A stretch of DNA of 32,000 bases from Edaphobacter aggregans (GTDB lineage Bacteria; Acidobacteriota; Terriglobia; Terriglobales; Acidobacteriaceae), in assembly GCF_003945235.1 (NCBI RefSeq), contig NZ_RSDW01000001.1, forward strand, positions 5,820,001 through 5,852,000, read 5' to 3'. Numbering within the stretch: position 1 is the first letter of the stretch; each line of letters opens with the position of its first letter. The position numbers were made by a program, and so were the translations under genes. Of this stretch, positions 1,452 through 15,688 are shown piece after piece. The notes under the pieces are model-generated. The model was not told the origin of the DNA. It made no database searches and saw only the letters and a program-made list of their open reading frames with translations.

Positions 1452-2684
1452 TTATGCCTCGACCAGCACCCGCCCATACCGTTTCTCGACATACTCATCA
1501 AGAATCGCCTGGAACTCCTCGACGATCCTGTCGCCCTTTAACGTAGTGAACAGCTTCCCATCCACATAAACCGGAGCCTTGGGCTCTTCAAATGTCCCCG
1601 GCAGCGAGATGCCAATATTCGCGTGCTTCGACTCGCCCGGCCCATTCACGATGCAGCCCATCACAGCCAGCTTCAGCTCCTCGACACCCGCATACTGCTT
1701 CTTCCACTCCGGCATCTGCTCAACCAGATAACCCTGAATCCGCTCCGCCAGCTCCTGGAAGTAGGTCGAAGTAGTCCGCCCGCACCCAGGGCAGCTAGTC
1801 ACCTGCGGCATAAAGCTGCGAATCCCCAGCGACTGCAGAATCTGCTGTCCACACCGAACCTCCTCCGACCGGTCCCCACCCGGAGTAGGCGTCAAACTAA
1901 CCCGGATCGTGTCCCCGATCCCCGAGAGCAGCAAAGGAGCCAGCCCGGCAGCCGAAGCCACAACTCCCTTCATCCCCATGCCGGCCTCGGTCAGCCCAAG
2001 ATGCAGCGCATAGTCGCAGCGCTTCGCCAACTCGGTATAAACATCAATCAAATCACGAACACCCGAGACCTTCGCAGACAGCACAATCTGGTCGCGCCGC
2101 AGCCCATACCGCTCCGCCGCAGCCGCATTATCCAGAGCCGACACCACCATCGCCTCCATCATCACATCGCGAGCGGGAAGGGGATCGGCCGACTTCGAAT
2201 TCTCATCCATCATCTTCGTCAGCAGCGCCTGATCGAGCGAACCCCAGTTCACCCCAATCCGCACCGGCTTCTGATGCTCCACCGCAACCTCAACCATCGT
2301 CCGAAAATTATCGTCATCCTTTCGACCGATCGACACATTACCCGGATTGATCCGATACTTCGCTAGCGCCCGGGCAGCCTCGGGATACTTCTTCAACAGA
2401 AGATGCCCGTTGTAGTGGAAGTCCCCAATGATTGGCGTAGTCCAACCCTTCCTCGCGATCCCTTCAACAATGTAGGGAACAGCCTTAGCAGCCTCATCAT
2501 TGTTCACGGTCACGCGAACCATCTCTGACCCGGCACGCGCCAGAGCCGCCACCTGCTGCACCGTACTCTCGACGTCCGCGGTATCCGTGTTCGTCATCGA
2601 CTGCACCACAACCGGCGCACTCGACCCCACCCGCACCCCACCAATATTTACCGTTACCGCACCACGACGCTGTATCTCAGGCAT
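1452..2684 (-). CDS. ispG: 4-hydroxy-3-methylbut-2-en-1-yl diphosphate synthase (MEP pathway)
   Basis: [45 protein letters not shown]...[10 protein letters not shown]...CPGCGRT...GCIVNGPGE are IspG/GcpE hallmarks. I prefer the Met at 2684 (GGAGAG 4 nt upstream) over the ORF-track start at 2738. Confidence 0.95.
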
Positions 2685-2748
2685 AAACTCTCCACCCTCA
2701 AGTTTATCATCCGAAGGCCCACAACCCTCGCGATACACTAGCTCAGAT

Positions 2749-2825
2749 GGCCCGGTAGCTCAGTTGCATAGAGCAGCGCACTCCTAACGCGAAGGTCGCA
2801 GGTTGGACTCCTGCCCGGGCCACCA
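2749..2825 (+). tRNA. tRNA-Arg (anticodon CCU), CCA encoded
   Basis: Manual cloverleaf. Acceptor GGCCCGG/CCGGGCC, D stem GCTC/GAGC, anticodon loop CTCCTAA, variable AGGTC, T stem GCAGG/CCTGC, discriminator A, then CCA. Caveats: the anticodon stem has only 3 Watson-Crick pairs (27:43 and 31:39 mismatched), and the elbow pair is swapped (C19/G56). Confidence 0.8.
2806..2825 (+). repeat. attL-type core: last 20 nt of tRNA-Arg (GACTCCTGCCCGGGCCACCA)
   Basis: Exact 20/20 direct repeat with 7224-7243. Confidence 0.85.
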
Positions 2826-3440
2826 AAACACATTAAGTACTTTGTTTTCTATAGTTTACTAGAGAAACCTAAAATAGAATAACTTGTAAGTTATTTTTTA
2901 TGCTTTATTTACATTAAATTACTAAAGTAGATAAAGGCGGTAGGGTTGCCTGACCGCCAATCCCAAGAAATTTGTAACTCTTTGCAACTAAAGGCTTATC
3001 GGTGACTGCAAGCGTGACGGGACGTACGGTGGCCGAGCGAACGGCCCATCTTGGTTTCTACAACGGGATTCATATCCGCCGTAAGGCTTGCAGGTTCGGG
3101 ATCCTTGAGACCCGAGGGTCCACCGTATTACTACCGAGACCAGAAGAAGGTGGAGAGTGCCGGGCACTCTTGCAACCTGTACCAATCGTGAAGAGCGCGA
3201 TCTTCTGTTCTGACGCGATTGGTTTCTCGCGAGACCTCGCGTTGAGCTATCGGTTTCTGCGGTTCCTCCGAGATGCCTGATTCAATATCGCCAACGAGTT
3301 GCGGGCGACGGCTCGCATAGCTTTGGTTTTGGCCGCATCACTAGAATCGCAACCTGCTCCGCAATCCCTCGCTTGCAGCAGGATACTTCCTTCGGTATAT
3401 AGCCTTCGATAGTGCGTCGATTGTGTCGATTATGAAAAGA

Positions 3441-3523
3441 CGCGAACGACGGGATTTGAACCCGGATGACCTAGGATAGTCGGCGATTATTCATCGCTGT
3501 GTCCGCCGTTTCACCACATCCGC
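3441..3523 (-). tRNA. Type-II (long variable arm, Leu-like) tRNA-like gene with a non-canonical anticodon arm; possible pseudo-tRNA or non-decoding tRNA-like RNA
   Basis: Minus-strand read GCGGATG-TG-GTG-AAACGGCGGA-CAC-A-GCGAT-GAATA-ATCGC-CGACTATCCTAGGTCAT-CCGGG-TTCAAAT-CCCGT-CGTTCGC-G. The 7-bp acceptor pairs fully (two G.U). The D arm is type-II-like, the T loop is TTCAAAT and the variable arm is 17 nt. The anticodon stem is perfect only with a 5-nt loop. The alternative 7-nt loop TGAATAA has G33 and an A.C pair. No CCA is encoded. Confidence 0.5.
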
Positions 3524-3532
3524 CCCAAGAAG

Positions 3533-3562
3533 ATTATCCCTTGCGAAAGCTAGAGCGGTCAA
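3533..3562 (-). promoter_or_regulatory. Sigma70-like promoter for the tRNA-like gene (TTGACC-N18-GATAAT)
   Basis: On the minus strand, TTGACC (3562-3557) and GATAAT (3538-3533). The predicted start falls a few nt upstream of the tRNA-like 5' end at 3523. Confidence 0.45.
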
Positions 3563-3569
3563 GCATAAT
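3541..3569 (+). promoter_or_regulatory. Sigma70-like promoter TTGCGA-N17-CATAAT giving a leaderless or near-leaderless mRNA for the 84-aa gene
   Basis: -35 at 3541-3546 and -10 at 3564-3569. The ATG at 3575 is only 5 nt after the -10 and there is no SD. The segment is homologous to the promoter at 4867-4895. Confidence 0.5.
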
Positions 3570-3574
3570 GGGGT

Positions 3575-3829
3575 ATGGCAAGAGCGGCAAAGATCGTTGA
3601 GATTAATACAGGACAGCCTAAGCCAGAGAAGAATCCTGCGGCTGTTGCCTTAGGTCGCCTCGGCGGACTCAGGGGCGGTAATGCCAGAGCCGCTAAGCTC
3701 TCACCAGAAGAGCGCAAGGAGATTGCCCAACGAGCCGCTAAGCAGCGTTGGGCGAACCGAAAGAGTATAGAACTGGTGCCTACGGTTGATCAGGCCGTAG
3801 ACGCTAAGAAGGTAGCTAAGCTACCCTAA
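3575..3829 (+). CDS. Small basic Ala/Lys/Arg-rich protein (84 aa), probable nucleic-acid binder; function unknown
   Basis: Contains GRLGGLRGGNARAAKLSPEERKEIAQRAAKQRWA, a 'GG.ARA..LSPEER..IA..AA..RW' motif I recognise from many small accessory-region proteins. It has its own promoter and a terminator-like hairpin downstream. Confidence 0.6.
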   Translation: MARAAKIVEINTGQPKPEKNPAAVALGRLGGLRGGNARAAKLSPEERKEIAQRAAKQRWANRKSIELVPTVDQAVDAKKVAKLP

Positions 3830-3940
3830 TTTGGGGATGACCACCACGACGGTCTGATCGCCACTCTGAATGGTAATCACGACCCGACTGGTGCCTACGC
3901 GTATCTTGACGGATGACATAGGTTGGGTTTTCTCCTTTCT

Positions 3941-3975
3941 GGCCACCCGCTCTGCAACGGGTGGCCTTTCAATTT
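3941..3975 (+). terminator. Hairpin GGCCACCCG-N8-CGGGTGGCC followed by TTTCAATTT
   Basis: 9-bp GC-rich stem (3941-3949 / 3958-3966) with a partial T-tract. It sits between the convergent 84-aa and 267-aa genes. Confidence 0.5.
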
Positions 3976-4772
3976 GCAGAAGTCTTCGTGAGCGTGACGC
4001 TCAGTTCGCCGATGTCGTTCTCGGCGGTCTTGTAGCTAACCTCAAAAACGCTGATGGCTAGCTGGAGCCACTTCTTGCGCTGATCGGTAGACCACACGGC
4101 ATCCTCCGGCGGCAACTTACTGAGTAGCCCCTGAATGAACGGGTTGTTGTGGGGAGGATCCCCGCCGTTACCGCCCTGCCCACCCTTGCCGGGCTTCTCC
4201 TCCAATGGCGGTGGCGGTGCTTCGGCCTGTGGCTGAGTTCCTTGAGGAGCAATGAGCCGATCAGTGCCGAAGGCGAAGTAGCCCGCCTGAGTCGCGGAAC
4301 GCTGGAACGCCTGCCGCGCCTTGTCCGCCTGCTTGGGGGCGACCCCCATCTGCTCCATCGCCTTCTCTAGCGCCGGATTGGCCGGGAGCATCTGGTTCCG
4401 ATACTGATCGAAGATGCGCTTGTAGAGCGGGATGAGCAAGAAGGAATCGGCGCGGGCTGCCTTCTCCTGCTTGGGGTCGATTACCCGCTTGCCTAAATCG
4501 GTCAAGCTAAACAAGCCCTTGTCCGACTCGATCAACCCGAACATCTTAGCCGTTCCAGTGCGCAGGTTGAACCCCCCGGCCTTCGCAGAGACCTTGAGAT
4601 AGGCAGCGAGCGCATCGCGGCTGCAACTGTTTCCGGCAACGCTATGAATGGCCTTGGCCAGCTTCACAGCATCGTCCTGATCGAGGTAGGGGAACCTAAT
4701 AGTGGAGCGCCCCTGCCCTTCATCCTCCGGTGTCTCCTGCGCAACCTCCGGCACGACATTCGGTTCTGTCAT
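3969..4772 (-). CDS. Hypothetical protein (267 aa): structured N-terminal part, Pro/Gly-rich linker, conserved-looking C-terminal tail
   Basis: Long ORF with GGAAGGAG 8 nt upstream of the ATG. Sequence includes RFPYLDQDDAVKLAKAIH...LTDLGKRV (winged-helix-like by eye), a linker PPPPLEEKPGKGGQGGNGG, and the tail NPFIQGLLSKLPPEDAVWSTDQRKKWLQLAISVFEVSYK. No family assigned. Confidence 0.7.
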   Translation of the reverse strand: MTEPNVVPEVAQETPEDEGQGRSTIRFPYLDQDDAVKLAKAIHSVAGNSCSRDALAAYLKVSAKAGGFNLRTGTAKMFGLIESDKGLFSLTDLGKRVIDPKQEKAARADSFLLIPLYKRIFDQYRNQMLPANPALEKAMEQMGVAPKQADKARQAFQRSATQAGYFAFGTDRLIAPQGTQPQAEAPPPPLEEKPGKGGQGGNGGDPPHNNPFIQGLLSKLPPEDAVWSTDQRKKWLQLAISVFEVSYKTAENDIGELSVTLTKTSAN

Positions 4773-4833
4773 AGCAGCATCTCCTTCCGATACCCATAAA
4801 GTACCATAGAAAAGGAAGCGTGCAAGAGAATAA

Positions 4834-4861
4834 TTATGACTTTATCCTTTTTTATGACTTT
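4834..4861 (+). promoter_or_regulatory. Two exact 10-bp direct repeats TTATGACTTT (4834-4843, 4852-4861) abutting the -35 box
   Basis: Read directly. Centre-to-centre spacing is 18 bp. They lie in the divergent control region between the 267-aa gene and the Zn-ribbon ORF. Confidence 0.45.
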
Positions 4862-4866
4862 CTCCC

Positions 4867-4895
4867 TTGACTACATGACCGCTCAAGCATAGTAT
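4867..4895 (+). promoter_or_regulatory. Sigma70-like promoter TTGACT-N17-TAGTAT giving a leaderless mRNA for ORF 4902
   Basis: -35 at 4867-4872 and -10 at 4890-4895. The ATG at 4902 is 6 nt after the -10. The core CTCAAGCATAGTATTGGGTCATGG resembles GTCAAGCATAATGGGGTATGG at 3558-3578. Confidence 0.55.
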
Positions 4896-4901
4896 TGGGT
4901 C

Positions 4902-5108
4902 ATGGAAAGCCAACTGCAAGCTCCGAAGACGCTGACCGAAGCTATCCGCTACTACTCCGATACCCAGACCTGCATCAATGCGGTGGCGATGCTCCGCTGG
5001 CAGGATGGAAGCCCCATTTGCCCGAAGTGCGGCGCGACGCAAGAGAAGCGGAATCACTACTGGCTGGCAACTCAAAGCGCAGCCTCAATGGAACCTACAT
5101 CGCTGTAG
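4902..5108 (+). CDS. Stand-alone IS1595-type transposase N-terminal zinc-ribbon domain (68 aa); transposase remnant or domesticated stub
   Basis: LTEAIRYYSDTQTCINAVAMLRWQDGSPICPKCGATQ matches the 'F.dE..C..yL...RWp.G..CP.CG' N-terminus of IS1595-family transposases. No DDE domain follows in any frame. Confidence 0.55.
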   Translation: MESQLQAPKTLTEAIRYYSDTQTCINAVAMLRWQDGSPICPKCGATQEKRNHYWLATQSAASMEPTSL

Positions 5109-5152
5109 AGCCATTCCACATTCCGCGTCCATGTCTGGTCGCTGCTCAAGCC

Positions 5153-6130
5153 TTAACGCTGTGCTTGAAGTAGCACCGAATTGCGGTGGAAGTCGAGAAA
5201 TGTCCGTTGGCCTTCGCTGAACGCACCAACATTCACTGTCTGTTCAGTTTCAATTCCCATCCGCCGTAGGGATTCCCGATGGGCGACAGGCGAGATAATG
5301 AGCCTCCCGGCATCCTCGAAACTGATAAAACCTCGGTCAAAGAGATGATCGATGGATGGCGTCAGTAACAGTCCATTCTCTCCATTCAGCCTCTCTTCAT
5401 TATTTGAATCCCGCCACGGCTTGCAGTGGCTTGCGCGGAGATGTTCGAGCCTTTCCACCTTCGTCACTCTACAGAACCGCTCGATTCGCAATACCCGCTC
5501 TTTGAACAGCCCCTGACCTCGACGGGCAATGATGAGAGATTCACGGTCTGTCTCTGGAATATCCTCAGCTTCCTCGATCGTCTGTTCGAGGTGATGCTCC
5601 CACACTTCCATATCGGCTTTTTCCGCTGGGGGCCGGATCAGTGCGGGTTGCTGAGCCGATGCTTGGACGAGTTCTTCCGCCTGTCGCCCGATCAAGCCGA
5701 TGAGCACCTCGGCGAAATGCGCAGATAACTCAGTCAAATAGATTCCTTGATTTCCATTCCCTGAAGCTTGTAGAGGTGAGTATTTGCCGGGCAAAACCGC
5801 GCTGAGGACATCCATATGTTTCTTCGGTCGAACCTTATGTTGCATCTCGATAAAGTTCACACGGATTTTCCACCCGATCCGCTCCCAATTCATGCCCACG
5901 CCGCCAAATTCCTCGGGTCGAGGACTTTCATAACAATTGGAAAGGGCTATCCCAATCCCATAAATGAGCGTGTCGAAAAACGAGAAGACGAGGTCTCCGG
6001 GGGATACCTCTCGCATGGATTCATAAAAAGGATTGCGCCTGTCGCCTTGTGCGCGTTTAGGAGACCAGAGATACCCTCCGCTGATCTCCTGCCGATGCGT
6101 CTGGTTCTGATTCACCCACCAATAACGCAT
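5153..6130 (-). CDS. HNH nuclease (HNH_2 type) with an N-terminal reader-like domain; candidate modification-dependent (type IV-like) restriction enzyme
   Basis: The C-terminus RVTKVERLEHLRASHCKPWRDSNNEERLNGENGLLLTPSIDHLFDRGFISF is the HNH_2 pattern. The N-terminus MRYWWVNQNQTHRQEISGGYLWSPK...VSPGDLVFSF is a domain I recognise as recurrently fused to this nuclease; calling it a PUA/EVE-like base reader is inference. Homologues start at M-x-YWWVNQ, so I prefer the start at 6130 over 6205. Confidence 0.8.
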   Translation of the reverse strand: MRYWWVNQNQTHRQEISGGYLWSPKRAQGDRRNPFYESMREVSPGDLVFSFFDTLIYGIGIALSNCYESPRPEEFGGVGMNWERIGWKIRVNFIEMQHKVRPKKHMDVLSAVLPGKYSPLQASGNGNQGIYLTELSAHFAEVLIGLIGRQAEELVQASAQQPALIRPPAEKADMEVWEHHLEQTIEEAEDIPETDRESLIIARRGQGLFKERVLRIERFCRVTKVERLEHLRASHCKPWRDSNNEERLNGENGLLLTPSIDHLFDRGFISFEDAGRLIISPVAHRESLRRMGIETEQTVNVGAFSEGQRTFLDFHRNSVLLQAQR

Positions 6131-6205
6131 TTCGGCCTTTCTCATTAGCAGACAAATAAATTGGCCAAGAATATCAGGAGTCCCGTTATACGTGTTCGCT
6201 GTCAA

Positions 6206-6246
6206 CTGGAACGTTCCAGCATAACCTGTTTTGGGTTTATCCCAAA
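6206..6246. promoter_or_regulatory. Operator-like palindrome cluster in the HNH/XRE divergent region
   Basis: Perfect 14-bp palindrome CTGGAACGTTCCAG (6206-6219), then ATAACCTGTTTTGGGTTTAT (6221-6240) overlapping TTTGGG-N5-CCCAAA (6230-6246). The ATAACCTGTTTT half recurs at 6579-6590. Confidence 0.55.
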
Positions 6247-6266
6247 TCCGGTTTTAGGCTTCCTAT

Positions 6267-6506
6267 GTGACTCGCGCTACTTTTACCGAAAAGGCCGAAC
6301 GGTTCAGAGAGCTTCTCGTGGCAGCGAGGGAAGAGTCCGGGTTGACGCAGGTACAGGTCGCAGAGAGACTGAGAAAACCTCAGTCGTACGTTTCAAAGAT
6401 TGAGCGCGGCGAACGAAGGCTCGACATCATCGAGTTCTTCGAACTAGCTGAGATCCTGAAAATCGACCCCATTGAGTTTCTTCAAACTCTTCAGCGGAAG
6501 CATTGA
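6267..6506 (+). CDS. XRE-family helix-turn-helix transcriptional regulator (79 aa, GTG start)
   Basis: LTQVQVAERLRKPQSYVSKIERGERRLDIIEFFELAEILKIDPIEFL is a canonical HTH_3/Cro-C1 motif. It is divergent from the HNH gene. Confidence 0.85.
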   Translation: MTRATFTEKAERFRELLVAAREESGLTQVQVAERLRKPQSYVSKIERGERRLDIIEFFELAEILKIDPIEFLQTLQRKH

Positions 6507-6573
6507 TTCAAGGCCACGTTCCTTCACTTGGTCCATTCCGATTCTGTCTCTGCGACGAACCAACATGGATAAT

Positions 6574-6604
6574 GACACAATAACCTGTTTTAGGTTATTG
6601 TGTC
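6574..6604. promoter_or_regulatory. Perfect 12-bp inverted repeat GACACAATAACC-TGTTTTA-GGTTATTGTGTC upstream of the AlpA-type gene
   Basis: Read directly. It shares the ATAACC-N7-GGTTAT core with 6221-6240. No T-tract follows, so an operator is more likely than a terminator. Confidence 0.55.
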
Positions 6605-6645
6605 CTTCATATATGAATGTCCAAGTGAAATCCAGTGAGAGCGTT

Positions 6646-6900
6646 ATGGCCACTGAGGTACCCAGCTTTCCAACTCGAAAGAAGCTCCTGCGTCGCCAGC
6701 AGGTAGAGGAGATGACGGGCCTGTCATGCTCAACGATCTATCGCAAAATGGAACAGGGCGAGTTTCCTCGCCCTGTCAGTCTTACGCGGAACTCCGTCCG
6801 CTGGGTGGAAGCTGAAGTGCTCGCATGGATGGATACGCTCGCGCCCACTCAGCCAACGATACGGATTGAAGGTCGCGCCCGCCGCGCCTCATCCAAGTAG
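6646..6900 (+). CDS. AlpA/excisionase-type HTH DNA-binding protein
   Basis: KKLLRRQQVEEMTGLSCSTIYRKMEQGEFPRPVSLTRNSVRWVEAEVLAWM matches the AlpA / phage regulatory protein pattern. The start was chosen at Met 6646, inside the longer ORF 6472..6900. Confidence 0.8.
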   Translation: MATEVPSFPTRKKLLRRQQVEEMTGLSCSTIYRKMEQGEFPRPVSLTRNSVRWVEAEVLAWMDTLAPTQPTIRIEGRARRASSK

Positions 6901-7223
6901 TCAGCCCACCACTACATCATCTCCGTGCGCTGCTTCAAATACTTTGCACGGTTGTAGGCCACGCTTACTTTGTTGCGCTACATGTGGACAAGCTGGAGGT
7001 CGATTATGCTAGGACGAATCTCTCTGATCTAGGGAAAAATCGACACATCAACAAGACTGGCAGCGACAGTATATCCAATTTGCTATCAATCATTTACGAG
7101 AAAGTGCAGCCGAAGAGAATGGATCTATACAGAATCTATTCAGTAAAGTGCACTCCGCGTCGCACTCCATCGGAGATCGTCTTTAGAAGGTGTTGATTTC
7201 AGTGATAGTTACGGGCTGTATGT

Positions 7224-7243
7224 GACTCCTGCCCGGGCCACCA
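7224..7243 (+). repeat. attR-type core: 20-nt direct copy of the tRNA-Arg 3' end
   Basis: GACTCCTGCCCGGGCCACCA is identical to 2806-2825. No tRNA body lies upstream of it. Confidence 0.85.
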
Positions 7244-7344
7244 CATAAACCCCTCTATAAACATTGAGTATTTTGAGATGTGTGCTGCGGCCACGGCGTC
7301 TCTTGAAAATGCAAGTGTGATACAAAAGTGATACACCTTCACAT

Positions 7345-7440
7345 TTATTTCTCAGTCGGCCGCAAGGCAAGCTCACCACCGATCTGCAGTCCTTGCAGGG
7401 CGGACAGCAAACGTCATACTTTATCGCGGGACATCTCTGA
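7345..7440 (+). repeat. Possible left half of a diverged copy of the ~160-bp repeat family, interrupted by IS copy 1
   Basis: Starts with GTCGGCC like copies A and B and contains a hairpin (CTGCAGTCCTTGCAG) at the position of GTCCACTTGGAC in copy A. Identity is otherwise low, so this is tentative. Confidence 0.3.
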
Positions 7441-7452
7441 TATGGAGTGACC

Positions 7453-7760
7453 GCGTCAACTCTGGGACATCTGTGGTTTGTAGTTTTCTTTTGTTTTTTC
7501 TCGAGGACAGAGCGAGCGGCAGCCGGGGCAGGTTGAGCGACGATTGATCAGTCTGATATTCGCGGGTCGGAACCGCATAATCATGATCCGTCGGGAGCTG
7601 CCTCTGACTGTTAGCGCGAGTCCGGGCGAGCCGGTCGCATAGGGCAAACGAGGATTCTCCTTCGTGCTTGCCTCGGCTGCTGCTGGCTCTGTGCTCGAAA
7701 TTGGTGACGAAGTTCATTTCCATTTTTTAGGAACGTTTTTCTTTCTGTCTTTCCTTTTTA
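7453..7760 (-). ncRNA. Candidate bridge/seek guide RNA of IS copy 1 (3' non-coding region)
   Basis: Contains an exact 14-mer of the reconstructed empty target (7602-7615), an 11/12 copy of the left target arm (7464-7475) and an 8-mer of the flank/IS junction (7552-7559). RNA ends and fold were not determined. Confidence 0.45.
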
Positions 7761-8888
7761 TCAGGCCGCGATCCGCTGCTTGGAAATAGCCTCTGCTCTG
7801 ATTCCAATGGCCCAGATAAAGCCCAGCAGTTCACGGGCAACTGCCGTGACTATCTTCCTCTGGTCCTTGCCGGCTGCACCCAGTTTCATATACCGCTTGT
7901 GCAGCCGGTGTTGCGCCTTCCACGCAATCTCTTTCGCCTCTTCGGAGATGCTCTCCTGTCGTCTGCGCAATCCGTACCAGATACAGGGTGGACGACGATA
8001 GCTCCATGCGGCTTCTATGACGATTCGGCGCAGGTGCGCGTTACCGGTCTTGGTGATGCCGCCACGCCTGGTTCGCCTGCCACTGGAATCCTCGCTGGGT
8101 ACAGCTCCGCAATAGCCCATCAGTTGTCGGGCACTGTCGAAGCGGGATACCTGACCCAACTCGGCAGCAATGGTCACAGCCGAGATATCTGCGATACCGC
8201 GCAGTGCCTGTAGATCGTTGATGACTTGTTGTAACGCGGGCGAGGCTAGCTTCACCGCCTCCGTGATGGCCTGCTCCAGACGCGCTACTCGTTCCCGCAT
8301 GTGCTCGACCTCGTGCAGATAGTCCTGCCGCGTGGACTCCTGAGCGATTTGTGTGAAACGTAGCTGCGCAACCCAGATCAGATAGGGACGTGTCCATGGC
8401 CGAACCCCGGACGGTGGACGCTGGCCTGAGCGAAGAAGAAACTTGCTCAGCCGATGCCGCGCTCGCATCTGATCTTGCTTGGCCGCTTCGCGGGCGCGCA
8501 CTAAATCCCGCAAGGCCTCAGAACCTTCATCCGGAACCCACACCGCCGTCAGATCTCCGGATCGATAACAGCGTGCCAACTTCTCAGCATCGCGCCGATC
8601 CGTCTTTACCCGATCACCCGCCTTTACCGGCACCAGCGTGGGTGCCACAACCTCGCACTGAATGCCCAGTTCCGTCAGCTGCCAGTACACGATGTAGCCC
8701 GTCGGTCCCGCCTCATAACAGGCTCGCAAGTTCTCTGCTGGGCCAAGCTTCCTGATCAGCTTGCGTATCGACTCGCTTCGGTTCGGAATCGTTCCCAGGC
8801 TCCGCACTTCGCCATCCAGCTCTGCAATCGCTACGGCAATCGTCTCGGCGTGGACATCCAAACCCAAAAATCGTAACTTCTCCTTCAT
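7761..8888 (-). CDS. IS110-family transposase (DEDD N-terminal domain plus Transposase_20 C-terminal domain)
   Basis: LGLDVHAETIAVAI...YEAGPTGY...VKTDRRDAEKLA...ITKTGNAHLRRIVIEAAWS is the typical IS110/IS1111 recombinase pattern. Confidence 0.93.
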   Translation of the reverse strand: MKEKLRFLGLDVHAETIAVAIAELDGEVRSLGTIPNRSESIRKLIRKLGPAENLRACYEAGPTGYIVYWQLTELGIQCEVVAPTLVPVKAGDRVKTDRRDAEKLARCYRSGDLTAVWVPDEGSEALRDLVRAREAAKQDQMRARHRLSKFLLRSGQRPPSGVRPWTRPYLIWVAQLRFTQIAQESTRQDYLHEVEHMRERVARLEQAITEAVKLASPALQQVINDLQALRGIADISAVTIAAELGQVSRFDSARQLMGYCGAVPSEDSSGRRTRRGGITKTGNAHLRRIVIEAAWSYRRPPCIWYGLRRRQESISEEAKEIAWKAQHRLHKRYMKLGAAGKDQRKIVTAVARELLGFIWAIGIRAEAISKQRIAA

Positions 8889-8982
8889 GACCGGCTCCCT
8901 TCCGCTTGTGGCTCTGAACTGCGTGTCCTGATAAACACACAGCCTAACCCACGATCAGCGCATCGGTGTCGGTCACTCCATA

Positions 8983-9090
8983 CTGACTGTTAGCAATAGT
9001 TGGACGGTCGAGCACTTGTCCGGAAAGCCGACTTTTCGTCCAAGTGGAAAGTCACCCACTGGAAATCAGTAAACACACTAGCGCGTTTTG
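8983..9090 (+). repeat. Right half of the repeat family (copy C), lying between the two IS elements
   Basis: ACTTTTCGTCCAAGTGGAAAGTCACCCACTGGAAATCAGTAAACAC closely matches 13440-13484 of copy A. The trailing ACTAGCGCGTTTTG resembles the A tail TGCGGCGTTTCT. Confidence 0.65.
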
Positions 9091-9105
9091 TATGAGCAGG
9101 TCACT

Positions 9106-9340
9106 GATGTCAAGGCTTTTTTCCTTATCAGGGTCTTTGCTTTTGCTGTTATTGCGTTGCTGTTGCTCTCCACCGGGTTTGTATTCGCACTCTGGTGAGC
9201 TGATCGTGATCTGAGCTCGGTGCCTGTTGGGGTTCGAGAGGAGAGTCGATGCTGCTATTTATCGGTCGGCCTCGATGGCCAAAACGCGCACGCAGTCATC
9301 GGAACACGGTGTCGACGCAACAAGTAAACATGATGATCTC
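9106..9340 (-). ncRNA. Candidate bridge/seek guide RNA of IS copy 2 (3' non-coding region)
   Basis: 9280-9289 CAAAACGCGC is the reverse complement of left flank 9081-9090. 9257-9264 ATTTATCG equals right flank 10467-10474. The two guide-like segments are 15 nt apart. Confidence 0.4.
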
Positions 9341-10426
9341 TCAGGCTGCTTCCGCGTGGAACGGGATGTAGAACTCTTGAGTGATCCAGAGGCGATGGAG
9401 CAAGACAGCCAGCTTCCGTGCTACAGCCACCACCGCCTTATTCTTAGCCTGCTTGCCGCCTCGGGCGGCCAGATGCAGGCCCCATTGTCGCAGTGCAGAG
9501 TCTCTTCCATGAGGTCGAAGGATGTGGTTGGCGCACTCAATCAGCAGGCTTCGAAGATAAGCGTTGCCTGCCTTGGTGATGCCGAGTTGCGGATCGCGTT
9601 CGCCTGACTGACTTCGTCTGGGCCGCAGGCCCAGATAGCAGCCCACGTCTCGACTACGTCCGAAGCGTTGCTTGTCGCCTAGCGTCAGGACGAACGTGAG
9701 AGCAGTGATATGACCGATGCCGTGGATGGTCAGCAGAGGCTGTGTCTCAGCATACTCAGTCTGAGTCATCCGTTGGATCTCCCGGTCGTACTGCTTGATC
9801 TTCAGCGTCATCGCCGCGATCTGTTCGAGCACCGGACCGAGTGCCAGCTGGAGTCCTGGCGGCATCGCGGCCTGGCCGCGCTGAGCAAAACACTTCGTGG
9901 ATGAGGCCGGCATACGATAGCCGCAGGCCTTCGTCAGTCCGCGCACGGCGTTCACAGCTGCGGTGCGAAGTCGAACGAGAAGCTCTCGCGCACGGATCAG
10001 GGTGAGAGCCTCTTGCTGTTCGACAGTGCGATGAGAGATCGGCCGAAGAATCTCTGGATCGAGACGCGCGTACCGGGCCAGCTTCTCTGCATCGACCTGG
10101 TCGCTCTTGCGATCACTGTGAGAAATGGCCCGGAGCTCGCGCACATTCGCTACGATCACTTCGTGACCGAGTTCCTGCAGTTGCTCGCTGATCCAGATCG
10201 AATGGACGCCGGCCTCCATCGCTACGCGTGTTGGAGGCAGATCCTTGAACCACTTCTCGATCGCCTTGGCTGTGGTTCGGAAGCGGCCTCGGTCAATGAC
10301 TTCGCCGTCCTGGTTGAGAGTGCAGTAATGGCTCCAGACATCGCCAAGGTCGATACCAATCGTGAGCTCGGTCCTGGCTTGCCTGCGTGGAACTTCCGCG
10401 ATGAGGTGCTGCGTCGGCTTCTTCAT
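9341..10426 (-). CDS. IS110-family transposase
   Basis: IGIDLGDVWSHYC...MEAGVHS...RKSDQVDAEKLA...ITKAGNAYLRSLLIECA shows the DEDD and Transposase_20 patterns. Confidence 0.93.
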   Translation of the reverse strand: MKKPTQHLIAEVPRRQARTELTIGIDLGDVWSHYCTLNQDGEVIDRGRFRTTAKAIEKWFKDLPPTRVAMEAGVHSIWISEQLQELGHEVIVANVRELRAISHSDRKSDQVDAEKLARYARLDPEILRPISHRTVEQQEALTLIRARELLVRLRTAAVNAVRGLTKACGYRMPASSTKCFAQRGQAAMPPGLQLALGPVLEQIAAMTLKIKQYDREIQRMTQTEYAETQPLLTIHGIGHITALTFVLTLGDKQRFGRSRDVGCYLGLRPRRSQSGERDPQLGITKAGNAYLRSLLIECANHILRPHGRDSALRQWGLHLAARGGKQAKNKAVVAVARKLAVLLHRLWITQEFYIPFHAEAA

Positions 10427-10603
10427 GGGATACAGTCTGCTCCCTCCGGAGTGACCTGCTCATCCCATTTATCGTTACTAGTCTTCGGCAATCAGTTCGT
10501 GGAGCAGGCAATAAGAGCTGGATGAGCGCTTTGTCCTGAAGTCGTCAAGTGAAGTCAACTTCTGTTTTGCCGAGACTCAGGCATTGGATCGGAGCTTCCA
10601 AAA

Positions 10604-13036
10604 TCATTCGTACCGTAACGCTTCCAGCGGATCGACCTTTCCTGCTCGCCACACCGGCATCCAGCACGCCAGGAGCCCCACTCCTAGAAATAACGCGCTC
10701 ACAACGATCAACGTCGCAGGATCGCTGGGCTGTACTTCAAACAGGAAAGACCTCAGCACTCGCGATAAAACAATCGCGAGCGCTGTACCCATGAGTACGC
10801 CACCCGCGATCAGCCGAAATCCTTCGCCGAAGATCAACCTGCGAATGTCCTTTTGTTGCGCGCCCACCGCACTGCGAATTGCCAGTTCTCGGCGTCGCGA
10901 GACCACTGACAGCGAAAGCATGCCGTAAATTCCGACCAGCGTCAACGCGCTTCCCACCACGGAAAACCCGGTCAGCAGATGCATTGCGAATGTCCGCGAT
11001 GCCAGTGACTCGTCGCGAATCTGTTCCAGTGTCTTCACGTTTTCGATCGCCGCCGTCGGATCCACGGAACGCAGTTCGTGTTCCACCGCGAGGACCGCCG
11101 CGCGCGGGTCCGCAGTTGTGCGTACGACGAGATGCTTTGAAAATGCGCTCGCTTGCCACAGCGACAGATAAATCTCCGGCGACGCCTCCTGCGTCAGATC
11201 ATCTGTTCGGCCGTTCGCGATCTCTCCAACAATTTCTGTGCCAGCTTTATCTCGTCCATTCAGCCAGAATTTCTTTCCGATGGCATTGCCCTGCGGAAAG
11301 TAACGGCGTGCAAATGCCTGGTTCACGATGGCTACGTTTGGCGCTTTGTTGTCGTCGGTCGATCGAAACTGCCGCCCTTCTATTTGTGCCATTCCCATTA
11401 ACTTGAAATAGTCGGGCGTCACCGCGCGTAGCGGCAGCGCTGTTTTGTCGCTCTCTTTCACCGCCGGAGGCTGGCCCTCAATCTCCAAAGTCGCCGGCCA
11501 GTTGTTGCCCGTCAGCGGCACACCCCATGCGAATGCCGCGTACTGCACACCCGGAATTGCAGCAACGCGCTCCAGCGCCTGCCGATGAAAGCTACCCCAG
11601 GTTGACCAGCTCTGAACGTCCGTGACACTCATCGTCAATATTCGACTGGTGTTGAATCCCGACGGAACGTTTGCGATCTTCACCATGGTGCGAATGAGCA
11701 ACCCCGCACCCACCAGCAGCGCGAGCGTTAACGCTGTCTGGAGCATCGCGACTCCGCGTAGCAACCTCCTTTCTCCAATTCCTGCCGTCCCTTTTGGTCC
11801 GGCGTCTTTCAGCGCTTCCATTGGATCGAGCCGAAATGCTCGCAGCGCCGGAATGACTCCGGCGAAAAAGGCTGCGAGCAGTGCGGTTCCAAGTCCCCAA
11901 GCTAAAACTGTCCAGCCAGCTGTCACTCCATCCAGCCGCGGAACGGCATGTCCCGCGATCGCCTTGAACAGCCTTACGGCGCCGAAGGCGAGCCCTACTC
12001 CAAATGCCCCGCCGATCAGCGCGAGCAGCAGGCTCTCTGTCAGGACTTGCCTTAGAAGACCTGCGCGGCCCATCCCCATCGCGATCCGCACGGCGTACTC
12101 TTGTTGCCTTTGCAGCCCACGCACCAGCAGGAGAGCTGCAGCGTTCCCACAAGCTATTAACAGCACCAACGTCGCTGCGCCTAACAGCGGCAGCAGAATC
12201 CGCTTCCCATCCCGGTTCATCTCGTCCGTTACCGGCTCCAGTTGCGGCACGAACCCGTCAAACTGCTTCTCGTCGTGCGCCTCTCTCGCCGTTAGTACTG
12301 CTAGTTCCCGTTGTGCCTGTTGCGGAGTCGCTCCGTCCCGCAGCCGCGCGACGACGTTCCAAGACGACTCTTTCAGATGCTTTGGGTCCGGATGCGCTGG
12401 CATCCAGAAATCCACCGTCGCATTGACGTCGTAATTAGGCTCCTTTGCTGCTCCTGGCGATGGCAGAAATCGCACTCCCGGTTCCATCACTCCGATCACG
12501 GTTTGCACATCCCATCGACTGATGCGGACCGTCTTCCCAACAATGTCCTTATCGCCGCCCAACGCCCGCTGCCAAAACTCGTACCCCAGTGCAATCGCCT
12601 TCACTGGCCCTTGCGCGAAATCTGAATCCTCGAAGCCGCGTCCCACCACCGGCCTCAGCCCCATCACCCGAAGATAGTCTTTGGTTATATTCATTCCCTG
12701 CATGGATTGGCTGCCATCATTGCGGATCAAAAAATTAAAGGTCCAGTCATACGCTGCGATTCCCTCGAACGACTTGCCTTCCTTCTGCCACTCCATCCAC
12801 TGTTCGGCGGCCCAGCCGCGCGGGCTGTCCATCTTCTGTCCATCGGTGCGCGCTGCGGGAATCAGCACAAGTTTCTCCGGCTTCTGATACGGCGGCGGTG
12901 TAAGCAATATGGCCTGAATCAAACTGAAGACCGCAGACGTAGCCCCAATTCCCAGCGCCAGGGTCAGCGCGGCGATCAGGCTGAAAACCGGCTGCTTCCA
13001 CAGCATCCGAAATGCAAACCGCAACTCTTGCAACAT
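10604..13036 (-). CDS. ADOP-family duplicated permease (MacB-like, two FtsX domains), 810 aa
   Basis: The N-terminus MLQELRFAFRMLWKQPVFSLIAALTLALGIGATSAVFS and the C-terminus ...KVDPLEALRYE are typical of the acidobacterial duplicated orphan permease family. No ATPase gene is adjacent. Confidence 0.92.
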   Translation of the reverse strand: MLQELRFAFRMLWKQPVFSLIAALTLALGIGATSAVFSLIQAILLTPPPYQKPEKLVLIPAARTDGQKMDSPRGWAAEQWMEWQKEGKSFEGIAAYDWTFNFLIRNDGSQSMQGMNITKDYLRVMGLRPVVGRGFEDSDFAQGPVKAIALGYEFWQRALGGDKDIVGKTVRISRWDVQTVIGVMEPGVRFLPSPGAAKEPNYDVNATVDFWMPAHPDPKHLKESSWNVVARLRDGATPQQAQRELAVLTAREAHDEKQFDGFVPQLEPVTDEMNRDGKRILLPLLGAATLVLLIACGNAAALLLVRGLQRQQEYAVRIAMGMGRAGLLRQVLTESLLLALIGGAFGVGLAFGAVRLFKAIAGHAVPRLDGVTAGWTVLAWGLGTALLAAFFAGVIPALRAFRLDPMEALKDAGPKGTAGIGERRLLRGVAMLQTALTLALLVGAGLLIRTMVKIANVPSGFNTSRILTMSVTDVQSWSTWGSFHRQALERVAAIPGVQYAAFAWGVPLTGNNWPATLEIEGQPPAVKESDKTALPLRAVTPDYFKLMGMAQIEGRQFRSTDDNKAPNVAIVNQAFARRYFPQGNAIGKKFWLNGRDKAGTEIVGEIANGRTDDLTQEASPEIYLSLWQASAFSKHLVVRTTADPRAAVLAVEHELRSVDPTAAIENVKTLEQIRDESLASRTFAMHLLTGFSVVGSALTLVGIYGMLSLSVVSRRRELAIRSAVGAQQKDIRRLIFGEGFRLIAGGVLMGTALAIVLSRVLRSFLFEVQPSDPATLIVVSALFLGVGLLACWMPVWRAGKVDPLEALRYE

Positions 13037-13327: not shown

Positions 13328-13484
13328 GTCGGCCAGTGTTTACAAATCCAGTCCACTTGGACGTAAACCGGCTATCCGGAACCCTGGTATCAGCAAGACC
13401 CGTCGGACGATGAGCCGCGGCAACTGTACGACTTGCCGAGTTTTCGTCCACGTGGAAAGTCACCCATTGGAAATCAGTTAACAC
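13328..13484 (+). repeat. Repeat family copy A (full length, 157 bp), MITE/REP-like with imperfect terminal inverted repeats
   Basis: The left arm GTGTTTAC...CCACTTGGACGTAAAC mirrors the reverse-complemented right arm GTGTTAAC...CCACGTGGACGAAAAC. The first 29 nt are identical to copy B and the right ~45 nt are near-identical to copy C. Confidence 0.75.
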
Positions 13485-15608: not shown

Positions 15609-15688
15609 GTCGGCCAGTGTTTACAAATCCAGTCCACCTGCACGCAAAAACCGGCTATTGTCCGACATGACGCCTTTTCGTCCAAGTG
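15609..15688 (+). repeat. Repeat family copy B (80 bp, internally deleted or truncated)
   Basis: GTCGGCCAGTGTTTACAAATCCAGTCCAC is identical to the start of copy A, and it ends with TTTTCGTCCAAGTG as in copy C. It begins 10 nt after the AraC stop. Confidence 0.7.

What the first reader, a model, noticed from the sequence alone, without database searches (positions are those of the whole stretch)
7437..8986. IS110-family element whose 3' non-coding region contains copies of its own insertion site: a readable candidate bridge/seek guide RNA
Seen in sequence:
- The transposase (7761-8888, minus) is bounded by perfect 12-bp inverted repeats at 7441-7452 and 8971-8982.
- Each inverted repeat is abutted by CTGA (7437-7440 and 8983-8986).
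- Joining the flanks through a single CTGA gives the empty site ...GGGACATCTCTGACTGTTAGC...
- The 14-mer CTCTGACTGTTAGC spanning the crossover recurs exactly inside the element at 7602-7615.
- The left arm GGGACATCTCTG recurs 11/12 at 7464-7475.
- The flank/IS junction 8-mer TCTGATAT (7436-7443) recurs at 7552-7559.
- A 14-nt exact match between a ~30-nt junction and a 320-nt region is expected by chance at roughly 1e-5.

Established knowledge: IS110/IS1111 DEDD recombinases are guided by an element-encoded ncRNA with target-binding and donor-binding loops (bridge RNA / seekRNA work published in 2024). In IS1111-type elements that RNA lies 3' of the gene.

Inference: 7453-7760 (minus) encodes such an RNA. 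Its target guides, and possibly a donor guide, can be read off here. The core would be within CTGA.
Basis: partly seen in the sequence, partly recalled or inferred. Interest (0 to 1): 0.85.

Follow-up and report, generated by a model that had tools for sequence, protein, structure and literature searches.

The report
IS1111-type insertion sequence with guide RNA

Summary
The element (7441-8982, minus strand) is an IS110-family, IS1111-type insertion sequence: DEDD transposase, perfect 12-bp subterminal inverted repeats, a TCAG core on both sides and a 320-nt 3' non-coding region.

Seventy-one related copies from Acidobacteriaceae genomes show a conserved ~200-nt structured RNA gene at 7500-7700.
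- The 14-mer contains a genuine guide: CTAACAG+TCAG (7604-7614) equals the left flank plus core in nearly all copies.
Its G/C position switches about 10 times across the family, and the flank follows.
Relatives carry almost the same spacer beside unrelated flanks, so it is not a guide.

The reconstructed "empty site" is a chimera. IS-free homologous loci read GGGACATCT-CTGA-AAGAGC, not CTGTTAGC. This copy therefore has a cognate left half-site and a non-cognate right flank joined at the core, which points to an IS-associated rearrangement.

Verdict: new member of a known kind (seekRNA / bridge RNA), of modest interest.

The parts
7441..8982 (-). IS-1: complete IS1111-type insertion sequence, 1542 bp
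   Evidence: Bounded by perfect 12-bp inverted repeats. The same ends and length (1526-1572 bp) are found in 71 related copies.
8983..8986 (-). Core copy at the left (transposase 5') junction: TCAG on the minus strand
   Evidence: Sequence. In relatives this copy reads TCAG, TCAT or TCAC.
7437..7440 (-). Core copy at the right junction: TCAG on the minus strand. Here it is the native CTGA of the tRNA-downstream locus.
   Evidence: IS-free loci L082, L084 and L085 have this CTGA in place.
8971..8982 (-). Left subterminal inverted repeat, TATGGAGTGACC
7441..7452 (-). Right subterminal inverted repeat, GGTCACTCCATA
7761..8888 (-). DEDD transposase / recombinase gene, 375 aa
   Evidence: PF01548 and PF02371. 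NF033542 'IS110 family RNA-guided transposase', 240 bits against a cut-off of 140. Weak sequence matches to the ISCro4 and IS621 transposase structures.
7500..7700 (-). Conserved ~200-nt structured RNA gene (seekRNA / bridge RNA candidate). Its strand is inferred, not shown.
   Evidence: Near-invariant block across 45 distinct sequences, set between variable A-rich spacers. MFE -87.2 kcal/mol, z -5.7.
7674..7697 (-). 5' arm of the closing stem
   Evidence: Pairs with 7502-7525. One GC/AU compensatory column and several G.U single-step variants.
7641..7648 (-). 'T' guide (right-target guide), UUUGCCCU. Complementary to core AG plus right flank; predicts the flank GGCAAA.
   Evidence: Across insertion sites: guide G with flank C 38, guide C with flank G 23, discordant 6. 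Fisher p 1e-11. About 10 independent switches on the transposase tree.
7615..7640 (-). Hairpin between the two guides
   Evidence: GCGA/UCGC and CCGG/CCGG stems. Mismatch, C-G and A-U variants occur among relatives. Different sequences form the same hairpin in IS-2 and in L088.
7604..7614 (-). 'B' guide (left-target guide) plus core, CUAACAG+UCAG.
   Evidence: Identical to the left flank AACAG plus TCAG in nearly all copies. In L068 a second copy is joined exactly after this internal site.
7539..7592 (-). Second stem-loop domain with an internal loop
   Evidence: A homologous domain is present in L088.
7553..7559 (-). AUAUCAG: last 3 nt of the right end plus core. Candidate donor/core-reading segment.
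   Evidence: The only >=7-nt match to the circle junction inside the RNA gene, and invariant in the family. IS-2 has GAAUA+CAAA matching its own junction CATA|CAAA.
7502..7525 (-). 3' arm of the closing stem
7453..7501 (-). Variable spacer between the RNA gene and the right inverted repeat.
   Evidence: Variable in length and sequence. No own-flank matching in relatives.
8987..9010 (-). Cognate left half of the REP-like target (..CCAACTATTGCTAACAG)
   Evidence: Matches the family target consensus cTCAAnTGnnGnnAACAG. It is 81-84% identical over 56-70 nt to the left flanks of L041 and L069.
7244..7436 (-). Non-cognate right flank: native DNA downstream of tRNA-Arg
   Evidence: 90-96% identical to IS-free loci L082, L084 and L085, which continue with DNA absent from the window.

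Best explanation
Window 7441-8982 is an intact IS110-family insertion sequence of the IS1111 type.

How it works. Its transposase is a DEDD recombinase guided by an RNA encoded just downstream of the gene (about 7700 to 7500 on the minus strand). The RNA has:
- a long closing stem;
- a first guide, UUUGCCCU, complementary to the last two core bases plus the right flank;
- a short hairpin;
- a second guide, CUAACAG+UCAG, identical to the left flank plus core, so it pairs with the opposite strand;
- a second stem-loop domain whose loop carries AUA plus the core (AUAUCAG), which matches the element's own right end.

Target. The family inserts at TCAG inside a ~40-bp non-coding repeat, cTCAAnTGnnGnnAACAG|TCAG|GsCAATGCnCTCATCGAG.

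This copy. Only the left half of that repeat is present. The right flank is unrelated DNA from downstream of a tRNA-Arg gene, joined exactly at a TCAG that is native there. The most likely cause is a recombination at the core after insertion: either a deletion running from the right end, or recombination between two copies.

Shown: element anatomy, conservation of the RNA gene, covariation between guide and flank, and non-contiguity of the two flanks.

Inferred: that the RNA is made, its strand, the role of the AUAUCAG segment, and the order of events.
For: Identity of the element:
- Transposase domains and NCBIfam assignment.
- The 12-bp inverted repeats occur only at the two ends.
- 71 related copies in Acidobacteriaceae share the ends and the TCAG core.

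The RNA gene:
- A ~200-nt block is near-invariant while the spacers on both sides vary.
- It folds well beyond shuffled controls.

The guides:
- The G/C position of the first guide tracks the C/G of the right flank: 61 concordant against 6 discordant, p 1e-11, with about 10 switches on the transposase tree.
- Further positions follow as well: CTCGGCCT elements sit beside GCCGAG or GCCGAT flanks.
- The second guide equals AACAG+TCAG in nearly all copies.
- Two short target matches on opposite strands that overlap at the insertion point is the published IS1111 seekRNA arrangement (PMC11187229).
- Bridge RNAs were predicted in the right end of 93% of IS1111 elements (PMC11208160).

Same architecture elsewhere:
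- IS-2 in this window has a 10-nt and an 8-nt match to its own two flanks.
- A Burkholderia plasmid element shows the same layout.

The flanks of this copy:
- IS-free loci L082, L084 and L085 continue differently after GGGACATCT-CTGA.
- They have no target-like repeat within the next 0.8-2.3 kb.
- Of the 70 relatives with a right flank in hand, two right ends abut fragments of a second copy (L047, L068) and one abuts a non-cognate flank of unknown origin (L031).
Against: - No expression data. Rfam has no matching family, so membership rests on architecture and covariation, not on a curated model.
- Folding does not settle the strand. The antisense strand folds at least as well: -110 against -87 kcal/mol, and alifold -72.5 against -63. 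Only the excess of G.U over A.C variants in the closing stem mildly favours the sense strand.
- Structural covariation within the family is thin: one compensatory column out of 60 pairs.
- The second guide and AUAUCAG are invariant, so neither can be tested by covariation within this family.
- No segment complementary to the left end was found, so a full donor-binding loop is not demonstrated.
- The L063-L065 subgroup carries guide C beside GCC or GAC flanks.
- The 9-nt (11/12) spacer/flank match in this copy is unexplained.
- The transposase (375 aa) is longer than the 330-350 aa quoted for IS1111 transposases.
Confidence: 0.85

Rival explanations
1. The element sits in an intact target, GGGACATCT-CTGA-CTGTTAGC. 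The internal 14-mer and 12-mer are the two target guides and TCTGATAT is a donor guide.
For: All three motifs are present. The 14-mer spans the crossover exactly, and the 11/12 match is unlikely by chance.
Against: - IS-free homologous loci continue CTGA-AAGAGC, so the joined site is not ancestral.
- The 12-mer is outside the conserved RNA, and near-identical spacers in L026 and L033 sit beside unrelated flanks.
- A different segment (7641-7648) covaries with the right flank.
- The trailing AG of the 14-mer and the trailing A of the 8-mer are invariant in relatives whose flanks start with G.
Confidence: 0.04
2. The spacer match is functional. A longer 3'-extended RNA that includes ACAGAUGUCCC (7464-7475) paired with the non-cognate flank AGATGTCCC, and this licensed the off-target recombination that created the present right junction.
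For: - The 9-nt exact (11/12) match lies directly beside the core. It is an outlier against 70 relatives, whose own-flank matches are 3-7 nt.
- Long and short seekRNA forms are reported.
- Recombination at sites matching only half of the guide is reported for IS621.
Against: - No relative shows spacer/flank matching.
- Eight of the nine bases were already present in the lineage: L026 and L033 have AGATGTCGC.
- The match is same-sense to the right arm. The true right-arm guide pairs with the other strand.
- Some cross-control comparisons also reach 9 nt.
Confidence: 0.07
3. The conserved 3' block is not an RNA guide. It would act as DNA, for example as transposase-binding sites or as a decoy copy of the target that regulates transposition.
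For: - The internal AACAG-TCAG is a good enough mimic that in L068 a copy is joined exactly there.
- Both strands fold equally well.
- There is no expression evidence.
Against: - A DNA decoy does not explain why a second segment is the reverse complement of the other flank and covaries with it.
- It does not explain the conserved closing stem and inter-guide hairpin, built from different sequences in three unrelated elements.
- An RNA from this region was shown to be essential in IS1111 elements (PMC11187229, abstract and sections read).
Confidence: 0.04

Closest known systems
IS1111-family elements with a seekRNA (ISEc11, ISPa11, ISKpn4; Siddiquee et al. 2024, PMC11187229)
   Same: - DEDD transposase, subterminal inverted repeats and the long non-coding region downstream of the gene.
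- Two short RNA segments that match opposite strands of the target and overlap at the insertion point, inside a stem-closed RNA.
- Natural retargeting by base changes in a guide.
   Different: - The transposase is 375 aa, against the quoted 330-350 aa. Its C-terminal motif reads GAVPSEDSSG, not GL-P----S(t)G.
- The conserved RNA block is ~200 nt with a second domain, whereas the minimal seekRNA is 82-96 nt.
- The host is Acidobacteriaceae and the target is a different repeat.
IS110-group bridge RNA (IS621; Durrant et al. 2024, PMC11208160)
   Same: - RNA-guided recombinase with left and right guides that read opposite strands on either side of a short core.
- The recombinase is a detectable sequence relative of IS621.
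- The second domain, with AUA plus core, resembles part of a donor-binding loop.
   Different: - The RNA gene is 3' of the recombinase gene, not 5'.
- The inverted repeats are 12 bp instead of 2-3 bp.
- The core is TCAG instead of CT.
- Only one arm of a possible donor loop was found.
REP-targeting IS110-family elements (ISPpu9, ISPpu10, ISPa11)
   Same: Insertion at one fixed position inside a short repeated intergenic sequence.
   Different: The target repeat here is an Acidobacteriaceae motif. I did not show that it is a REP element in the strict sense.
Half-match recombination of IS621 (Xie et al., bioRxiv 10.64898/2026.08.31.748434)
   Same: A junction in which only one arm plus the core matches the guide, as in this copy and in L068.
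   Different: That work was done in vitro and in E. coli with IS621. Here it is only an interpretation of natural junctions, and the pseudo-site in the window matches no guide arm, only the core plus AG.

Membership tests
IS110-family DEDD transposase | N-terminal DEDD (RuvC-like) domain PF01548 plus C-terminal domain PF02371 | tested here: met
   E 1.7e-17 and 2.2e-20, both above the gathering cut-offs. NF033542 scores 240 bits against a cut-off of 140.
IS110-family DEDD transposase | Conserved G--P----SG motif in the C-terminal domain | tested here: met
   GAVPSEDSSG is read directly from the translation. The motif definition comes from PMC11187229.
IS1111 group | Subterminal inverted repeats of 7-17 bp | tested here: met
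   A perfect 12-bp repeat pair, unique in the window and conserved in 71 relatives.
IS1111 group | The longer non-coding region lies downstream of the transposase gene | tested here: met
   320 nt downstream against 94 nt upstream.
IS1111 group | Transposase clusters with IS1111 transposases (330-350 aa, GL-P----S(t)G) | tested here: inconclusive
   It is 375 aa and has GAVP rather than GL-P. I built no phylogeny with ISfinder references, and ISfinder was not available.
seekRNA / bridge RNA | Two short RNA segments matching opposite strands of the target and overlapping at the insertion point | tested here: met
   At family level, TTGsCCT is the reverse complement of AG+GsCAA, and AACAGTCAG equals the left flank plus core. 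They overlap at AG. In this copy only the second segment matches its flank.
seekRNA / bridge RNA | Guide bases covary with the flanks across related elements | tested here: met
   For the first guide: 61 concordant against 6 discordant, with about 10 switches. The second guide is invariant within the family. Between elements (IS-1, IS-2, L088) both guides differ and each matches its own flanks.
seekRNA / bridge RNA | Conserved secondary structure that presents the guides | tested here: inconclusive
   The closing stem and inter-guide hairpin are conserved and are rebuilt from different sequences in IS-2 and L088. Within the family only one of 60 pairs is compensatory. Predicted unpaired probability of the guides is only 0.38-0.54. 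The antisense strand folds as well.
seekRNA / bridge RNA | Donor-binding loop matching both element ends | tested here: inconclusive
   Only AUAUCAG (right end plus core) was found, and nothing complementary to the left end. IS-2 has a parallel segment, GAAUA+CAAA.
seekRNA / bridge RNA | The RNA is transcribed, binds the transposase and is needed for transposition | not testable with these tools
   No expression or biochemical data are available. The promoter scan was uninformative.
seekRNA / bridge RNA | Match to a curated covariance model | tested here: not met
   Rfam 15 gives no hit at gathering score or at E<=10. The published bridge and seek RNA models may simply not be in Rfam.

The most novel reading that the evidence does not exclude
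IS1111-type elements may naturally recombine at sites that share only the core, or one guide arm, with their RNA. That would produce deletions next to the right end. The DNA that encodes the left-flank guide would itself serve as a decoy target, as in L068. The window copy, with a cognate left flank, a core-only right junction and a 9-11-nt spacer match to the foreign flank, would record such an event, perhaps helped by pairing with a 3' tail of the RNA.
Probability: 0.1. Interest if true: 0.55.

Novelty: new member of a known kind. Interest (0 to 1): 0.3.

Why it matters
It adds an Acidobacteriaceae lineage of RNA-guided IS1111-type elements whose two target guides can be read directly and are backed by natural covariation: one guide base switched about ten times, and the target followed. 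The family also offers natural examples of junctions that match only half of the guide, or only the core. These bear on the off-target behaviour of bridge recombinases used for genome editing. None of this changes current understanding; it is a well-supported new instance of a mechanism published in 2024.

Tried and rejected
- Rfam at gathering score and at E<=10 returned nothing relevant.
- Exact-protein look-ups for the transposase and for the neighbouring ABC permease found nothing on record.
- The plasmid collection holds only distant relatives, at most 72% identity over 22% of the element.
- I tested whether the target repeat is the 3' end of a gene. In the frame ending at the core TGA the ORFs are mostly under 50 aa, so it is non-coding.
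- I tested whether the spacer is a family-wide guide. Own-flank matches equal the cross-controls, so this was rejected.
- I tested whether the right flank is a decayed fragment of another copy, as in L047 and L068. It is native tRNA-downstream DNA, so this was rejected.
- I tested whether IS-1 is inserted into the 3' region of IS-2. IS-2 ends near 9090, about 100 bp from IS-1, so this was rejected.
- I looked for a guide complementary to the left end. None of 6 nt or more was found apart from a stem segment, ACTGAT.
- I tried to fix the RNA strand by folding energy, without success.
- The promoter and terminator scan was uninformative.
- I did not build a covariance model. Covariation between guides and flanks already answered the question.
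Full report
**1. The observation**

Reading 7200-9200 confirms every sequence statement.
- TATGGAGTGACC is at 7441-7452 and its reverse complement at 8971-8982. These are the only two matches in the window, against 0.08 expected.
- CTGA abuts both repeats.
- CTCTGACTGTTAGC recurs exactly at 7602-7615.
- GGGACATCTGTG at 7464-7475 is an 11/12 copy of the flank.
- TCTGATAT is at 7436-7443 and at 7552-7559.
- The ORF 7761-8888 (minus, 375 aa) carries PF01548 and PF02371. It scores 240 bits on NF033542, 'IS110 family RNA-guided transposase'.

**2. Relatives**

A scan of one genome per species returned 80 loci, all from Acidobacteriaceae (Granulicella, Tunturiibacter, Terracidiphilus and many MAGs), at 83-96% protein identity. 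In 71 of them both ends could be located.

Written in transposase orientation, every copy reads: flank-AACAG TCAG | TATGGAGTGACC ... GGTCACTCCATA | TCAG-flank. The right core copy is always TCAG. The left copy is TCAG, TCAT or TCAC.

The flanks define a ~40-bp target, cTCAAnTGnnGnnAACAG|TCAG|GsCAATGCnCTCATCGAG. It is not the end of a gene, because the ORFs in the frame ending at the core TGA are mostly under 50 aa. It therefore behaves like a repeated intergenic, REP-like motif.

**3. The RNA gene**

Alignment of the 3' non-coding regions shows a near-invariant ~200-nt block, window 7700 to 7500 on the minus strand. It sits between A-rich spacers that vary in length and sequence.

The block has a long closing stem (7674-7697 with 7502-7525). 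One column of that stem alternates GC and AU, with G.U intermediates. The window sequence folds at -87.2 kcal/mol, z -5.7.

In 5' to 3' order the block contains:
- yTTGsCCT (window TTTGCCCT, 7641-7648);
- a hairpin (7615-7640);
- (A/C)TAACAGTCAG (7604-7614);
- a second stem-loop domain (7539-7592), whose internal loop carries AATATCAGAC.

**4. Which segments are guides**

*Left-flank guide.* (A/C)TAACAG+TCAG has the same sequence as the left flank plus core in nearly all copies. The trailing AG is invariant in relatives whose right flanks begin with G, so its match in the window is incidental.

*Right-flank guide.* yTTGsCCT is the reverse complement of AG+GsCAAr, that is, the last two core bases plus the right flank. 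Its variable base covaries with the flank:

| Guide base | Flank base | Insertion sites |
|---|---|---|
| G | C | 38 |
| C | G | 23 |
| G | G | 3 |
| C | C | 3 |

Fisher's exact test gives p = 1e-11. On a neighbour-joining tree of the transposase gene the guide state changes about 10 times, and the flank follows almost every time. For example, L014, L007, L050 and L012 are C-guide elements nested among G-guide relatives, and each sits beside a GGC flank. A further position also tracks: CTCGGCCT elements sit beside GCCGAG or GCCGAT.

*Comparison with the literature.* Two short matches to opposite strands that overlap at the insertion point is what Siddiquee et al. describe for IS1111 seekRNAs (PMC11187229). 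Durrant et al. predicted bridge RNAs in the right end of 93% of IS1111 elements (PMC11208160).

*The 12-mer.* It lies in the variable spacer outside the RNA block. L026 and L033 carry CACAGATGTCGC there beside GGCAAT and GGCTTA flanks. Across 70 copies the longest match between the spacer and the copy's own flank is 3-7 nt, the same as for mismatched pairs. The window's 9 nt is an isolated outlier. It is not a guide.

*The 8-mer.* Only ATATCAG is conserved. It equals the last three bases of the right end plus the core, and it is the only match of 7 nt or more to the circle junction inside the RNA gene. On its own this is weak: I expect about 0.15 such matches by chance.

**5. The same architecture in other elements**

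A second IS1111-type element lies next door (IS-2). Its transposase gene is 9341-10426 on the minus strand, and its 14-bp repeats, ATGAGCAGGTCACT, are at 10450-10463 and 9092-9105. Its 3' region contains:
- GCGCGTTTTG (9280-9289), the reverse complement of its own right flank CAAAACGCGC;
- a GGCC/GGCC hairpin;
- CGATAAAT (9257-9264), equal to its own left flank;
- further on, GCGAATACAAAC, which matches its right-end junction CATA|CAAA.

A Burkholderia plasmid element (L088) has the same layout: TTCCACT (reverse complement of AG+TGGAA), a hairpin, TTTTAAG (its left flank), and GTATGTCAGTG in the second domain.

So the layout of guide, hairpin, guide, then a domain with end-plus-core is shared. 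The guide sequences differ between elements, and each matches its own flanks. The change from TCAG to CAAA in the last segment, in step with the core, is the best evidence here that this segment reads the core and the right end.

**6. This copy is not in an intact target**

Its right-flank guide predicts GGCAAA, but the flank is AGATGTCCC. A metagenome scan for the flank found three homologous IS-free loci, L082, L084 and L085. They read ...ctttatcgcgggacatct CTGA AAGAGCATTTTCGACCCG....

L082 aligns to window 1462-2825 and then directly to 7224-7440. The 0.8-2.3 kb that follow in these loci are absent from the window, and they contain no target-like repeat.

The other flank (8987 onward) is a normal left half of the target repeat, homologous over 56-70 nt to the left flanks of L041 and L069.

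Either of two histories fits:
- insertion into the repeat, followed by a core-level recombination of the right end with a pseudo-site, which deletes the DNA in between;
- recombination between two copies.

An assembly join through a repeated IS would not remove the need for a copy at the pseudo-site.

Comparable right-end irregularities occur in relatives:
- In L068 a complete element is followed by TCAG and a 158-nt 3' fragment that begins exactly after the internal AACAGTCAG.
- In L047 the appended fragment is 229 nt.
- L031 has a non-cognate right flank of unknown origin.

Recombination at sites matching only half of the guide has been reported for IS621 (bioRxiv 10.64898/2026.08.31.748434). 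The window's pseudo-site, however, shares only TCAG plus AG with the guide.

**7. What remains uncertain**

- There are no expression data, and Rfam has no matching family.
- Folding cannot fix the strand. The antisense strand folds at -110 kcal/mol, and the alignment fold also favours it. Only the excess of G.U over A.C single-step variants in the closing stem favours the sense strand. The guide logic is symmetric, so the identification of the guide segments does not depend on the strand.
- No guide for the left end was found.
- The 9-nt spacer match is unexplained. Eight of the nine bases predate this copy, so chance is the simplest reading.
- Assignment to the IS1111 subgroup rests on the repeats and the position of the non-coding region. 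The protein is longer than typical IS1111 transposases.

**8. Verdict**

The element is a new member of a known kind (IS1111-type, seekRNA / bridge RNA guided). The modest added interest lies in the clean natural covariation and in the half-cognate junction.

Noticed in passing
window ~9090-10467 (minus strand): A second, unrelated IS1111-type element (IS-2) lies about 100 bp from IS-1. It has a 361-aa IS110-family transposase and 14-bp subterminal repeats, ATGAGCAGGTCACT. Its 3' region carries a 10-nt segment complementary to its own right flank (9280-9289) and an 8-nt copy of its left flank (9257-9264). Its exact termini and its AAA/CAAA core are inferred.
   Followed up: partly
window 2749-2825 and 7224-7243; island 2826-7223: The 3' end of tRNA-Arg(CCT) is repeated (20-24 bp) at 7224-7243. 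The ~4.4 kb in between is absent from the homologous metagenome locus L082. It encodes an AlpA-like protein, an XRE-type HTH protein and an HNH-domain protein. No integrase was found among ORFs of 120 aa or more. It looks like a small, possibly decayed, tRNA-integrated island.
   Followed up: partly
window 3441-3523 (minus strand): ARAGORN calls a tRNA-Ile(AAT) inside the island. Rfam's tRNA model did not report it at gathering score, so it may be a pseudo-tRNA or a false call.
   Followed up: no
L068 3937-4110; L047 3955-4200: In two relatives a complete element is followed by TCAG and a 3' fragment of a second copy, which ends in its own right repeat, TCAG and a normal target right half. In L068 the fragment starts exactly after the internal AACAGTCAG. 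The DNA encoding the left-flank guide can therefore itself act as a recombination site.
   Followed up: partly
L001-L080, left junctions: The core copy at the left junction varies at its fourth base (TCAG, TCAT or TCAC), while the right copy is always TCAG. This suggests that strand exchange happens within or just after TCA, and that the fourth base travels with the element.
   Followed up: no
window 10520-10560 (minus strand): An unoccupied sequence resembles the family's target repeat but lacks AACAG: TTCACTTGACGAC-TTCAG-GACAAAGCGCTCATCCAG. It lies just downstream of a MacB/FtsX-type ABC permease gene (10604-13036).
   Followed up: no
window 9027-9076 vs 13435-13484; 13330-13380 vs 15610-15660: Other short intergenic repeat families are present. 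One 50-nt unit is 92% identical between the IS-1/IS-2 spacer and 13435-13484, and it also occurs beside the element in L049. A second unit, cggccagtgtttacaaatccagtccac..., is seen at two places.
   Followed up: no
window 7464-7472 vs 7428-7436: A 9-nt exact (11/12) match links the variable spacer of IS-1 to its non-cognate flank. It is an outlier against 70 relatives and is not explained by any guide model tested here.
   Followed up: yes
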